The notes below the pieces were generated by a model, which had not been told where the DNA came from, did no database searches, and worked only from the letters and a program-made list of their open reading frames with translations. Below, piece after piece: positions 1,424-8,199 of a stretch of DNA of 11,452 nucleotides. The first letter of the stretch is position 1. Each line of letters opens with the position of its first letter. Source of the stretch: a virus (lineage: Duplodnaviria > Heunggongvirae > Uroviricota > Caudoviricetes); IMG/VR virus record IMGVR_UViG_3300015187_000032; one strand, 5' to 3'. Both the position numbers and the translations under genes were made by a program.

Positions 1424-1612
1424 TCACGAGGACTGAAGTTTCTCGCAATTAAAATTAATCAGTTTTACTTTCTGCTCTCTGGAAACGCCTGCTTCTTTTT
1501 TACCTGAGAGCATTTTTTCACATTCTGATTTCGTTAGTTTAGATTTTGAATATCTTGTCCAGTTAGTAGGAGTGCCACCTTCCTTTTCAATAGTGGCGGT
1601 AATTTTATACAT
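1424..1612 (-). CDS. ydaC: Small prophage protein of unknown function (YdaC-like, 62 aa from this start)
   Basis: Track ORF 1424..1684. ATG at rc 1610-1612 is preceded by GGAGGTG at 6-nt spacing (rc of 1613-1630), giving MYKITATIEKEGG.... The longer 86-aa start would overlap lar by about 80 nt and lacks an SD. Start choice is inference. Confidence 0.6.
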   Translation of the reverse strand: MYKITATIEKEGGTPTNWTRYSKSKLTKSECEKMLSGKKEAGVSREQKVKLINFNCEKLQSS

Positions 1613-5708: not shown

Positions 5709-5879
5709 TTAAAGTTCGTGTGCCATCTGGTCTTTTTCGGCACATATTTCACTACAATATTTTTTCATTTCCGTCGTTGGGATAACTCCACGCATGAAAT
5801 GAAGTGGTCTTTTAATGCTTTTGCTTTCTTTAACTTCTTTATCGCAAAGATGGTAAGCACATTTTATTTTCTTAGTCAT
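5709..5879 (-). CDS. ydaE: YdaE small Cys-rich (putative zinc-binding) protein, 56 aa; missing from the ORF track (<60 aa)
   Basis: Hand translation of the minus strand gives [56 protein letters not shown] with stop TAA (rc 5709-5711). Four Cys (C7, C12, C43, C47). The ATG overlaps the kilR stop (rc 5877-5881 = TGATG), suggesting translational coupling. Confidence 0.65.
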   Translation of the reverse strand: MTKKIKCAYHLCDKEVKESKSIKRPLHFMRGVIPTTEMKKYCSEICAEKDQMAHEL

Positions 5880-6100
5880 CACCATGACTCCGCCTTTACA
5901 GGTAAACCATCACGACCGAGGAAGACTTTAATCATGCAGTCAGTAATGCATGTTTTTGTGGTCAGGTTACGAATATAAAGTTTTCGCTTTTTAATATTGT
6001 TTGCCGAGGCAATATATGTCCGGCCGTTATGAAGAATATAATCACCAGGAGTCACACACTGACGAGGTATTTCATCAGTTCCGAAGTGATGAGCAATCAT
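5879..6100 (-). CDS. kilR: KilR: prophage Kil protein, cell-division (FtsZ) inhibitor (73 aa)
   Basis: Track ORF 5879..6118 (GTG start) trimmed to ATG at rc 6098-6100 ([14 protein letters not shown]...), with GGAG 6 nt upstream. Recognised as Rac KilR. Confidence 0.75.
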
Positions 6101-6261
6101 AATTATCTCCATTTTCACAAATGAACTTTGTTGATGCGGTGCCTGGTGCCTCCAGGTGACGTTAACCAGTTAACAATTAACGCCGGATAATCCACCCATA
6201 ACACTGATGCTTTTAACTGTTCCGCGTGCGCTTAGCCGCATTCACCGCATCACAAAATTCA

Positions 6262-6312
6262 CTTTAAAAAGGGCGGACATCAGCCGAACTTCAAGAAAAA
6301 AACTGATGCCGC
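6262..6312 (-). terminator. Candidate intrinsic terminator on the minus strand, upstream of kilR in the leftward transcription direction
   Basis: GC-rich stem 6271-6282 (GGCGGACATCAG) pairs with 6302-6312 (CTGATGCCGCC), 11 bp with one bulge and a 19-nt A-rich loop. On the minus strand it is followed directly by CTTTTTAAAG (rc of 6261-6270). Confidence 0.3.
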
Positions 6313-6531
6313 CAGGACTACACACAGCAATGTCGTTATTTACAACCGGAGGCGCACTCCCACCATTTAAATTTAACAGACAAGACCGACTCTTTATGGA
6401 TATCGGAAATGCGCCTTCGTGTTGTGCCCGGTTTTATTTCACCACCTCCGGGCTTCGGTGGTCTCGGCTATACCCCTACAGCGAGAGCTTGTGTTAACAT
6501 TTCAATACCCTTACAGTTGAGAGTTATTGAT

Positions 6532-7020
6532 ATGTTGGATGTATTTACTCCATTGTTGAAACTTTTTGCTAACGAGCCACTCGAAAGACTTATGTATACG
6601 ATTATCATTTTTGGTCTCACTCTCTGGCTGATACCGAAAGAGTTTACTGTCGCATTCAATGCTTATACTGAAATACCTTGGCTCTTTCAGATTATCGTTT
6701 TTGCCTTTTCTTTCGTGGTCGCCATTTCCTTCTCAAGATTGCGAGCACATATTCAAAAGCATTATTCATTACTACCAGAGCAACGAGTATTGCTTCGTTT
6801 ATCTGAGAAAGAAATCGCTGTATTTAAAGATTTCCTTAAAACAGGAAATCTTATTATCACTTCTCCTTGTCGTAACCCGGTTATGAAAAAATTAGAACGG
6901 AAGGGCATCATTCAACATCAGAGTGATAGCGCAAACTGTTCTTATTATCTCGTCACCGAAAAATACTCCCATTTTATGAAGTTATTCTGGAACAGCAGGA
7001 GTAGACGTTTTAATCGTTAG
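6532..7020 (+). CDS. sieB: SieB superinfection-exclusion protein (162 aa), membrane protein
   Basis: Track ORF 6409..7020 trimmed to ATG 6532 (MLDVFTPLLKLFANEPLERLMYTIIIFGLTLWLIPKEF...). Two hydrophobic segments are predicted. Encoded opposite to the surrounding leftward operon. The stop overlaps the ydaF stop on the other strand. Confidence 0.8.
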   Translation: MLDVFTPLLKLFANEPLERLMYTIIIFGLTLWLIPKEFTVAFNAYTEIPWLFQIIVFAFSFVVAISFSRLRAHIQKHYSLLPEQRVLLRLSEKEIAVFKDFLKTGNLIITSPCRNPVMKKLERKGIIQHQSDSANCSYYLVTEKYSHFMKLFWNSRSRRFNR

Positions 7021-7486: not shown

Positions 7487-7515
7487 ACTATAGGTAATGC
7501 CTAATTGATTGTCAA
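7487..7515 (-). promoter_or_regulatory. pL-like leftward early promoter: TTGACA -17 bp- TATAGT on the minus strand
   Basis: rc of 7510-7515 is TTGACA; rc of 7487-7492 is TATAGT; the spacer is exactly 17 bp. Oriented toward ydaG-ydaF-kilR-recET. Flanked and overlapped by the operator palindromes. Confidence 0.45.
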
Positions 7516-8131: not shown

Positions 8132-8195
8132 TAGGCAATCCCTACCTTTATCGTATTAGGCATAGCCTATTGACATTTGCGTTAGGCGTCGCCTA
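8132..8195. promoter_or_regulatory. Right operator cluster (OR-like): three 13-bp TAGGC-N3-GCCTA palindromes at 25-26-bp centre spacing, between racR and ydaS
   Basis: 8132-8144 TAGGCAATCCCTA (imperfect), 8157-8169 TAGGCATAGCCTA (perfect), 8183-8195 TAGGCGTCGCCTA (perfect). The 21-bp block 8155-8175 is the exact reverse complement of 7510-7530. Confidence 0.5.
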
Positions 8196-8199
8196 ATAT
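8170..8199 (+). promoter_or_regulatory. pR-like rightward early promoter: TTGACA -18 bp- TAATAT
   Basis: TTGACA at 8170-8175; best -10 candidate TAATAT at 8194-8199, overlapping the third operator. Followed by GGAG (8214-8217) and the ydaS ATG at 8226. Confidence 0.4.

What the first reader, a model, noticed from the sequence alone, without database searches (positions are those of the whole stretch)
6119..6531. About 410 bp with no convincing ORF between kilR and sieB, containing a minus-strand terminator-like hairpin
The only track ORF here (6207..6497) has implausible composition and no SD. The region contains a GC-rich 11-bp stem (6271-6312) followed on the minus strand by CTTTTTAAAG. That would stop leftward transcripts before kilR-ydaE-racC-recET, consistent with recET silence in lysogens, or it could mark the 3' end of a small RNA. 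A second hairpin, GCCCGG/CCGGGC, lies at 6426-6453.
Basis: partly seen in the sequence, partly recalled or inferred. Interest (0 to 1): 0.45.

Follow-up and report, generated by a model that had tools for sequence, protein, structure and literature searches.

The report
Known prophage small RNA KilS

Summary
A 5+6 bp GC-rich hairpin (window 6272-6313, minus strand) is followed by CUUUUUAAAG. No shuffle of the region gives an equally good terminator (0/500). It is not new. The stretch 6266-6363 (-) is 100% identical to kilS (b4833) of E. coli K-12 MG1655. KilS is a 98-nt Hfq-dependent small RNA confirmed by northern blot, with its own mapped start site (Bar et al. 2021). ORF 6207-6497 is not a gene.

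What I add:
- **DicF relative.** KilS and the 165-nt kilR leader are homologous to the dicF-dicB interval of prophage Qin. KilS has the DicF terminator scaffold with a different loop and 5' part, and scores below Rfam's DicF cut-off.
- **RprA-identical stretch.** KilS nt 33-48 match the conserved 3' part of host sRNA RprA, and start just after a mapped RNase E site.
- **Leader.** It is an STnc100/PasD-type RNA closed by a 20-bp helix that includes the sequence after the KilS U-tract. This is the likely RNase III site known for DicF.

The second hairpin (6426-6453) folds no better than chance.

The parts
6370..6378 (-). Probable extended -10 promoter of kilS: TG (6378-6377), one base, then TAAATT (6375-6370), 7 nt before the start site G6363
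   Evidence: Read directly from the sequence. In K-12 a TSS is mapped at 1418502, which equals window 6363. The region is 100% identical to K-12. The promoter assignment itself is an inference.
6266..6363 (-). kilS gene: 98-nt Hfq-dependent small RNA KilS (b4833)
   Evidence: 100% identity to the annotated MG1655 ncRNA kilS. Confirmed by northern blot and RIL-seq in Bar et al. 2021. Present in 1534 of 5426 complete E. coli genomes.
6316..6331 (-). Candidate seed AUUGCUGUGUGUAGUC (KilS nt 33-48), identical to RprA nt 60-75. The RNase E site mapped in K-12 (1418471 = window 6332) lies immediately 5' of it.
   Evidence: Longest common substring with the real MG1655 RprA is 16 nt. RNase E site from the paper's supplement. 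Predicted pairing to the RIL-seq partner yncL uses this stretch.
6272..6313 (-).
   Evidence: MFE -19.5 kcal/mol; 0/500 shuffles reach it. Rfam DicF match at 6271-6326, 39.1 bits against a cut-off of 48. All 38 distinct variants in related loci fold to a hairpin at this place, with compensatory GGCGG/CCGCC to GGUGG/CCACC changes.
6266..6270 (-). U5 tract: the 3' end of KilS and a likely Hfq-binding tail
   Evidence: The 3' end in K-12 is 1418405, which equals window 6266. Sequence.
6101..6265 (-). Structured 5' leader of kilR, an STnc100/PasD-type multi-branch RNA
   Evidence: Fold z-score -4.5. Rfam STnc100 match at 6086-6269, 42.6 bits against a cut-off of 47, E 2e-7. Consensus structure over 64 distinct leaders. 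Homologous to the dicF-dicB leader.
6243..6263 (-). 5' arm of the 20-bp closing helix of the leader, starting 3 nt after the KilS U-tract; candidate RNase III site
   Evidence: Pairs with 6120-6141; only 1 broken cell in 64 sequences x 20 pairs, with many C/U changes opposite G. The published RNase III end of DicF (72 nt against 53 nt) falls inside the homologous arm.
6120..6141 (-). 3' arm of the closing helix, ending just upstream of the kilR Shine-Dalgarno sequence (GGAG 6107-6110)
5879..6100 (-). kilR, cell-division inhibitor (context)
   Evidence: PHROG 294 Kil, E 2.7e-36. Annotation in related genomes.
6426..6453 (.). Inverted repeat GCCCGG-N16-CCGGGC; role unknown, not supported as a structure
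   Evidence: Folds no better than shuffles. It lies in a block conserved with kilS, but no covariation was seen.
6532..7020 (+). sieB (context), transcribed away from the gap
   Evidence: PHROG 6399 SieB, E 5e-70
7487..7515 (-). Strong sigma70-like site TTGACA-17-TATAGT; probable early-left promoter that sends transcripts leftward towards kilS and kilR (context)
   Evidence: Promoter scan, 11 of 12 matches. The role is inferred from its position between racR and the ydaG/ydaF-like ORFs.

Best explanation
On the minus strand the gap holds two joined RNA elements that belong to kilR.

(1) The kilS gene. RNA polymerase starts at G6363 from an extended -10 promoter and stops at the hairpin 6313-6272 plus U5. 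This gives the 98-nt Hfq-dependent sRNA KilS. RNase E cuts at about nt 32. The resulting ~66-nt form would have AUUGCUGUGUGUAGUC at its 5' end, the same stretch as in host sRNA RprA, and this is the probable seed for pairing with mRNAs such as yncL.

(2) The kilR leader. Polymerases that read through the short-U terminator, whether they started at PkilS or at the early-left promoter near 7500, transcribe a 165-nt STnc100-type leader. Its 20-bp closing helix pairs the sequence just after the KilS U-tract with the sequence just before the kilR ribosome-binding site. By analogy with dicF-dicB, RNase III cuts this helix. That would separate a longer KilS from a short-leader kilR mRNA.

The whole arrangement is a paralogue of the dicF-dicB module of prophage Qin: small RNA, then leader, then division inhibitor.

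Shown: identity with KilS; its ends, TSS, RNase E site, Hfq dependence and RIL-seq partner (published for K-12); homology and conserved structures (computed here).

Inferred: the promoter hexamers, which stretch is the seed, terminator read-through, and RNase III cleavage in Rac.
For: - Identity with kilS (b4833): 100% over 98 nt and on up to sieB.
- Published northern blot, Hfq dependence, stationary-phase accumulation, own promoter and RIL-seq partner yncL. TSS at 1418502, RNase E site at 1418471, 3' end at 1418405.
- Terminator strength: -19.5 kcal/mol, 0/500 shuffles. The processed 66-nt form folds with z -3.6.
- Homology to dicF-dicB from the hairpin through to the start codon. Sub-threshold Rfam matches to DicF and STnc100 lie at exactly these places. 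Canonical DicF loci show the same DicF + STnc100 order.
- Mosaic relatives that combine the KilS 5' part with the DicF loop score 61 bits on the DicF model.
- Hairpin conserved in 38 variants with compensatory changes.
- Leader consensus structure with a 20-bp helix, strand-specific G-U-compatible changes and compensatory pairs.
- DicF biogenesis: terminator end at 53 nt, RNase III end at 72 nt, RNase E 5' end.
- Among 124 related viral loci the sRNA + leader precedes dicB or kilR in nearly every locus where a downstream ORF could be read.
- The best predicted KilS-yncL duplexes use nt 29-47.
Against: - Nothing here tests the window's own strain; all the transcript data are from K-12.
- KilS has only 3 RIL-seq interactions, so a trans role is weakly documented.
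- The predicted pairing with yncL is only modestly better than shuffles (3% do as well).
- One of the two published northern probes has 16 nt complementary to RprA, and which probe gave the published blot is not stated.
- The Rfam scores for DicF (39.1 against 48) and STnc100 (42.6 against 47) are below the curated cut-offs.
- RNase III cleavage and terminator read-through have not been shown for Rac.
- No rut-like C-rich region was found to explain the known Rho/NusG control.
Confidence: 0.8

Rival explanations
1. The element is only a cis-acting attenuator. The hairpin prematurely ends transcripts heading for kilR-ydaE-racC-recET, and the short RNA is a by-product with no targets of its own.
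For: Bar et al. classify KilS as derived from the kilR 5' UTR, with few interaction partners. kilR must be kept silent. The hairpin sits between both candidate promoters and kilR.
Against: The RNA is Hfq-dependent and forms chimeras with yncL on Hfq. Its 5' part is conserved as a block across variants whose loops differ. Its homologue DicF is a proven trans-acting sRNA using the same scaffold. Both roles can coexist. U5 followed by AAAG is a weak tail, and the identical DicF terminator is read through.
Confidence: 0.2
2. The gap encodes a protein, the 96-aa ORF 6207-6497 on the + strand.
For: An open frame exists and a shorter GTG-started version survives in K-12.
Against: No Pfam or PHROG family. 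Its start region is rearranged between K-12 and the window. Relatives differ by 1-2 nt in the T-run inside it. The conservation pattern fits RNA helices on the opposite strand.
Confidence: 0.02
3. KilS acts mainly as an antisense partner of a + strand transcript, for example a long sieB 5' UTR starting at the promoter-like site 6162-6191.
For: A 9-of-12 promoter-like match lies on the + strand at 6162-6191. Antisense control of sieB is known in phage P22 (from memory).
Against: The match is weak and lies in the AT-rich palindromic arm of a conserved leader hairpin, so it is probably incidental. The same sRNA + leader module occurs without sieB nearby. No + strand transcript is documented.
Confidence: 0.04
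4. The STnc100-type leader is more than an RNase III entry site. It could be a polymerase-modifying (put-like) antiterminator or an independent Hfq sRNA that controls expression of the early-left operon.
For: It is very widespread, with conserved loops (GGUGAAU, UAAGCG, AGGCA) and covarying stems in at least 25 genera. Family members are reported as Hfq-binding sRNAs (PasD, EcOnc27) and also lie inside the late operon after stx2.
Against: There is no sequence or structural resemblance to the two-hairpin put RNAs that I can demonstrate. kilR remains subject to Rho/NusG. Nothing here tests this idea.
Confidence: 0.08

Closest known systems
KilS (kilS, b4833) of E. coli K-12 Rac prophage (Bar, Argaman, Altuvia & Margalit 2021, PMC8175672)
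   Same: Identical sequence, position and strand. The same neighbours, kilR and sieB.
   Different: Nothing in the sRNA itself. The window comes from another strain whose kilR leader differs in its central part. The paper does not mention DicF, RprA, Rac homology or the leader.
DicF sRNA and the dicF-dicB interval of prophage Qin (Rfam RF00039)
   Same: Homologous terminator hairpin base (GGCGG...CCGCCCUUUUUAAAG) and identical downstream leader. Same position directly upstream of a cell-division inhibitor gene. An RNase E cut defines the functional 5' end. Hfq-associated.
   Different: The 5' single-stranded part is unrelated (AUUGCUGUGUGUAGUC against UUUCUGGUGACGUU). The loop that pairs with ftsZ in DicF is replaced, so predicted ftsZ pairing is weaker (-17.7 against -23.3 kcal/mol). 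KilS has its own promoter, whereas DicF is cut out of an operon transcript. The Rfam score is below the cut-off. The downstream gene is kilR, not dicB.
RprA (Rfam RF00034), host envelope-stress sRNA
   Same: 16 nt identical (20 nt in mosaic relatives), placed 2-3 nt before a terminator hairpin and beginning at an RNase E-type site (A/CAUU against A/AUU).
   Different: No other similarity. The RprA 5' hairpin, the rpoS-pairing region and the terminator are absent. The Rfam score is 28 against a cut-off of 70. KilS is on a prophage and RprA is in the core genome.
STnc100 (Rfam RF02076) / PasD / EcOnc27 prophage RNAs
   Same: The same multi-branch architecture, closed by a long helix with conserved loops; prophage-borne.
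   Different: Here it is the 5' leader of kilR directly fused to an sRNA terminator, and it scores just below the cut-off. The E. coli dicB/kilR subtype has different stem sequences that covary with the Salmonella-type consensus.

Membership tests
KilS (b4833) | Sequence identity with the annotated 98-nt MG1655 gene, lying between kilR and sieB on the kilR strand | tested here: met
   100% identity over the gene and its upstream region; neighbours confirmed
KilS (b4833) | A discrete Hfq-dependent transcript with a TSS at its 5' end and a terminator 3' end | not testable with these tools
   Published for K-12 only; not measured for the strain of this window
Intrinsic (Rho-independent) terminator | Stable GC-rich hairpin immediately followed by a U-tract on the transcribed strand | tested here: met
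   -19.5 kcal/mol, U5 one base after the stem, 0/500 shuffles as good. The tail is short (U5 then AAAG), so leakiness is expected.
DicF (Rfam RF00039) | Score at or above the curated gathering cut-off (48 bits) | tested here: not met
   39.1 bits, E 1.6e-6. Canonical copies score 75-77 bits. Mosaics with the DicF loop score 61 bits.
DicF (Rfam RF00039) | Homologous hairpin and U-tail followed by the conserved leader and a division-inhibitor gene | tested here: met
   Alignment A1, 38-variant alignment, association with dicB/kilR
DicF (Rfam RF00039) | 3' part complementary to the ftsZ ribosome-binding site | tested here: inconclusive
   Predicted duplex is -17.7 kcal/mol for KilS against -23.3 for DicF. 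The loop sequence differs and only the stem-arm part is retained.
STnc100 (Rfam RF02076) | Score at or above the gathering cut-off (47 bits) | tested here: not met
   42.6 bits, E 2.1e-7
STnc100 (Rfam RF02076) | Long closing helix around a multi-branch core with conserved loops | tested here: met
   Consensus structure over 64 leaders. The same layout appears in the Rfam structure line. Covariation with the Salmonella-type sequences.
RprA (Rfam RF00034) | Full-length match to the model (cut-off 70 bits), including the rpoS-pairing region | tested here: not met
   28.1 bits, E 1.3. Only 16 nt are shared.
RNase III processing site (as at the DicF 3' end) | About two turns of near-perfect double-stranded RNA at the mapped cleavage position | tested here: inconclusive
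   A conserved 20-bp helix covers the position homologous to the 72-nt DicF end. Cleavage in Rac has not been measured.

The most novel reading that the evidence does not exclude
KilS is a DicF-scaffold sRNA whose RNase E-processed 5' end copies the conserved 3' seed of the host sRNA RprA. On this reading the Rac prophage plugs into, or competes within, part of the RprA regulon. More generally, lambdoid prophages would carry one conserved cassette: a terminator scaffold, then an STnc100-type leader with an RNase III helix, then a division inhibitor. Different seeds, loops and killer genes would be swapped into this cassette by recombination.
Probability: 0.3. Interest if true: 0.55.

Novelty: already known. 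Interest (0 to 1): 0.3.

Why it matters
The gap itself is explained: it is the annotated kilS gene plus the kilR leader. What matters modestly is the context.

kilR is the toxic gene behind Rho/NusG essentiality and behind the OxyS-induced cell-cycle arrest. Its control region turns out to be a paralogue of the dicF-dicB control region. That suggests concrete experiments on terminator read-through, RNase III processing and seed-dependent targets.

The 16-20-nt identity with RprA, if functional, would be an example of a prophage sRNA sharing a host sRNA's seed.

There is also an annotation point. kilS is present in about 28% of complete E. coli genomes and unannotated under every hit listed, and Rfam's DicF and STnc100 models score this subtype just below their cut-offs.

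Tried and rejected
- The Rfam gathering search found nothing in the gap, only RalA elsewhere. The relevant matches appeared only with the E-value threshold.
- The generic terminator scan did not list the hairpin because of its loop-length limit.
- The older key papers are not held: Faubladier & Bouche 1994, Conter 1996, Cardinale 2008. I therefore cannot say whether the Rac dicF-like sequence was already noted in 1994.
- Whole-length duplex prediction gave meaningless end-to-end duplexes, and one run timed out. I replaced it with windowed scans.
- I looked for a rut-like C-rich stretch on the leftward RNA to place the Rho/NusG terminator. The RNA is G-rich over 6100-6450, so this was uninformative.
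- I tested the second hairpin for stability and covariation and found none.
- I tested ORF 6207-6497 against Pfam and PHROGs and found nothing.
- I checked whether the other 5' types in the family resemble other host sRNAs. There were no Rfam matches at E <= 1.
- I could not find an accessible source giving the exact RprA nucleotides used for ricI pairing. The statement that the shared stretch is RprA's second seed rests on memory.

Full report
Yes. On the minus strand, GGCGGCAUCAG (6313-6303) pairs with CUGAUGUCCGCC (6283-6272). That gives 5+6 base pairs with one bulged U. It is followed by C, U5 (6270-6266) and AAAG. The hairpin has an MFE of -19.5 kcal/mol. None of 500 dinucleotide-preserving shuffles of 6119-6531, scanned on both strands, produced a hairpin plus T5 this stable.

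The gap borders need small corrections. kilR starts at ATG 6100, giving the 73-aa KilR, rather than at the upstream GTG 6118. sieB starts at 6532.

The only sizeable ORF, 6207-6497 (+), has no Pfam or PHROG family. Its start region differs between this window and K-12. Close relatives vary by 1-2 nt in the T-run that it would have to read through. It is not a gene.

**2. What is it?**
The stretch 6266-6363 (-) is 100% identical to the ncRNA gene kilS (b4833), annotated in the curated MG1655 record at 1418405<-1418502. The identity continues all the way to sieB.

KilS was predicted from Hfq RIL-seq data and confirmed by northern blot. It is present in wild type and absent in delta-hfq. It accumulates in stationary phase and is judged to have its own promoter. 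The paper's supplement gives a TSS at 1418502 (window G6363), an RNase E site at 1418471 (window 6332) and the 3' end at 1418405 (window 6266, the last U of the U5 tract).

Upstream of G6363 the sequence reads TG-t-TAAATT (6378-6370), at the correct distance for an extended -10 promoter. This is my inference from the sequence.

kilS occurs in 1534 of 5426 complete E. coli genomes, and 1233 of these are at least 99% identical. No feature is annotated under any hit listed. It also occurs in isolated lambdoid phages.

**3. Relation to DicF.**
A permissive Rfam scan places a DicF match on the hairpin (6271-6326, 39.1 bits, cut-off 48, E 1.6e-6). An STnc100 match lies directly downstream (6086-6269, 42.6 bits, cut-off 47, E 2.1e-7). 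Canonical dicF loci show the same pair in the same order, in front of dicB.

Aligning the window with two dicF-dicB loci shows continuous homology from the base of the hairpin to the start codon of the downstream gene. The sequence 5' of the hairpin and the hairpin loop are unrelated.

The 75 nt upstream of that 21-mer fall into at least four 5' types and four loop types, and these occur in mixed combinations. The KilS 5' part joined to the DicF loop passes the DicF cut-off at 61 bits. KilS therefore belongs to the same homologous series but lies outside the Rfam model.

All 38 distinct variants fold into a hairpin ending at CCCUUUUU. There are compensatory changes, for example GGCGG/CCGCC to GGUGG/CCACC.

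The sRNA type and the downstream gene are mostly linked: DicF with dicB and KilS with kilR. They also re-assort. I found DicF with kilR twice and KilS with dicB once.

**4. The RprA-like stretch.**
KilS nt 33-48 (window 6331-6316), AUUGCUGUGUGUAGUC, is identical to nt 60-75 of the real MG1655 RprA sequence. The flanks also resemble each other: AACGA[C]AUUGC, and the terminator begins 2-3 nt after the shared stretch. In mosaic relatives the identity reaches 20 nt.

For a 413-nt region compared with about 10 kb of E. coli sRNA sequence, the chance expectation of a 16-nt match is roughly 0.002 by my arithmetic. It is unlikely to be coincidence.

The RNase E site mapped in K-12 lies immediately 5' of this stretch. 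The motif there (AC|AUU) and in RprA (GA|AUU) fits the RN|WUU preference, which I cite from memory. The processed ~66-nt form would therefore begin with this stretch, and it folds well (z -3.6).

The best predicted duplexes between KilS and its RIL-seq partner yncL use nt 29-47. One site is in the 3' UTR (-20.4 kcal/mol; 3% of shuffles do as well). Another is in the 5' UTR (-18.7 kcal/mol). This is supportive but weak.

In contrast, the DicF loop that pairs with the ftsZ ribosome-binding site is replaced in KilS, and the predicted pairing drops from -23.3 to -17.7 kcal/mol.

That the shared stretch is one of RprA's two seeds (Papenfort et al. 2015) is from memory. I found no accessible text to confirm the positions.

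One caveat concerns the published evidence. One of the two published KilS northern probes contains 16 nt perfectly complementary to RprA. RprA is similar in size, Hfq-dependent and abundant in stationary phase.

**5. The kilR leader.**
The 165 nt between the U-tract and the kilR start fold far better than shuffles (z -4.5). Across 64 distinct leaders the consensus is a 20-bp closing helix (6263-6243 with 6141-6120) around several hairpins and a hypervariable insert. Only 1 of 1280 helix cells is broken. The frequent substitutions are C/U changes opposite G, which keep pairing only in the minus-strand RNA. An inner 11-bp hairpin has two compensatory pairs.

For DicF, the literature reports a 53-nt form ending at the terminator and a 72-nt form made by RNase III. 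The extra ~19 nt end inside the 5' arm of this helix. The helix is therefore the likely RNase III site. Its 3' arm ends just before the kilR Shine-Dalgarno sequence, GGAG at 6110-6107.

The same architecture is Rfam's STnc100 and is related to PasD. A core motif of it was found in at least 120 contigs of species-representative genomes, across some 25 genera of Enterobacterales. The stems covary and the loops are conserved. It also lies downstream of stx2B and in the P1-like phages P7 and D6.

**6. How it most likely works.**
KilS is made from its own promoter and ends at the hairpin. RNase E trims it to a seed-first form that acts with Hfq.

The terminator has a short U-tract, so it is probably leaky, as the identical DicF terminator is. 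Read-through transcripts can come from PkilS or from the strong early-left promoter-like site at 7515-7487. These transcripts fold the leader and are probably cut by RNase III, which would yield kilR mRNA.

Published work shows that kilR is kept silent by NusG acting with Rho and is released when OxyS represses nusG. I could not locate the factor-dependent terminator. The leftward RNA over 6100-6450 is G-rich rather than C-rich.

**7. The second hairpin.**
The repeat GCCCGG/CCGGGC (6426-6453) is present but folds no better than shuffles on either strand. It has no U-tract. It sits in a block that is conserved together with kilS even where the upstream gene is not sieB, but I saw no covariation. 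Its role is unknown.

**8. Verdict.**
The finding is a correct rediscovery of a known, annotated sRNA gene and of the structured leader next to it.

The parts I could not find in the accessible literature are three. First, KilS is a DicF-series paralogue. Second, it has a 16-20-nt identity with RprA that starts at the RNase E site. Third, the shared leader with its probable RNase III helix links it to a division-inhibitor gene. Bar et al. mention none of DicF, RprA or Rac, and the DicF study does not mention Rac. The 1994 paper on dicF-like prophage sequences could not be read, so priority for the DicF relationship is uncertain.

Noticed in passing
window 1428-1606 (+): Full-length RalA antitoxin sRNA of the RalR/RalA type I toxin-antitoxin pair (Rfam 222.7 bits, cut-off 170).
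   Followed up: no
window 7487-7515 (-) and 8170-8199 (+): Two strong sigma70-like sites flank racR: TTGACA-17-TATAGT on the minus strand and TTGACA-18-TAATAT on the plus strand. They are probably the early-left and early-right promoters of the prophage. The leftward one would send transcripts antisense through sieB into kilS and kilR.
   Followed up: partly
window ~6185-6240 (-), inside the kilR leader: The window is identical to K-12 Rac across kilS and the rest of the gap but differs here by a 10-nt indel plus substitutions. In this stretch it matches the dicB-type leader instead. This suggests recombination between Rac-like and Qin-like prophages inside the leader.
   Followed up: partly
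window 6302-6331 (probe 2 of Bar et al. 2021 is complementary to the minus-strand RNA here): The published KilS northern probe 2 (AGGACTACACACAGCAATGTCGTTATTTAC) contains 16 nt perfectly complementary to RprA nt 60-75. RprA is similar in size, Hfq-dependent and abundant in stationary phase, so cross-hybridisation is possible. Probe 1 is specific to the hairpin.
   Followed up: no
E. coli genomes matched by window 6266-6363: kilS is present in 1534 of 5426 complete E. coli genomes, with no feature annotated under any hit listed. Of the records inspected, only the curated MG1655 record NC_000913.3 annotates it. Rfam's DicF and STnc100 models score this subtype just below their cut-offs.
   Followed up: yes
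loci L128-L247 (species-representative genomes); L002 2239-2440; L005 5046-5234: The STnc100-type RNA core (GGUGAAU...UAAGCG...CACCNGGAGGCACCNGGCACC) occurs in at least 120 contigs from about 25 genera of Enterobacterales, often without a DicF-like hairpin upstream. In some prophages it sits next to c4 antisense and isrK elements. It is also in the P1-like phages P7 and D6. Its function as a leader is not understood.
   Followed up: partly
IMG/VR loci L004-L123: sRNA type and downstream killer gene re-assort: DicF with kilR (2 loci), KilS with dicB (1), KilS 5' part with DicF loop and kilR (1). Two further 5' types precede dicB. A third downstream ORF type (MKTRTGG...) also occurs.
   Followed up: partly
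window 6409-6531 (+): The sieB reading frame stays open 123 nt upstream of the accepted start (ATG 6409 would give 203 aa). The SieB family profile, however, aligns from residue 1 of the 162-aa form, so the accepted start at 6532 looks right.
   Followed up: partly
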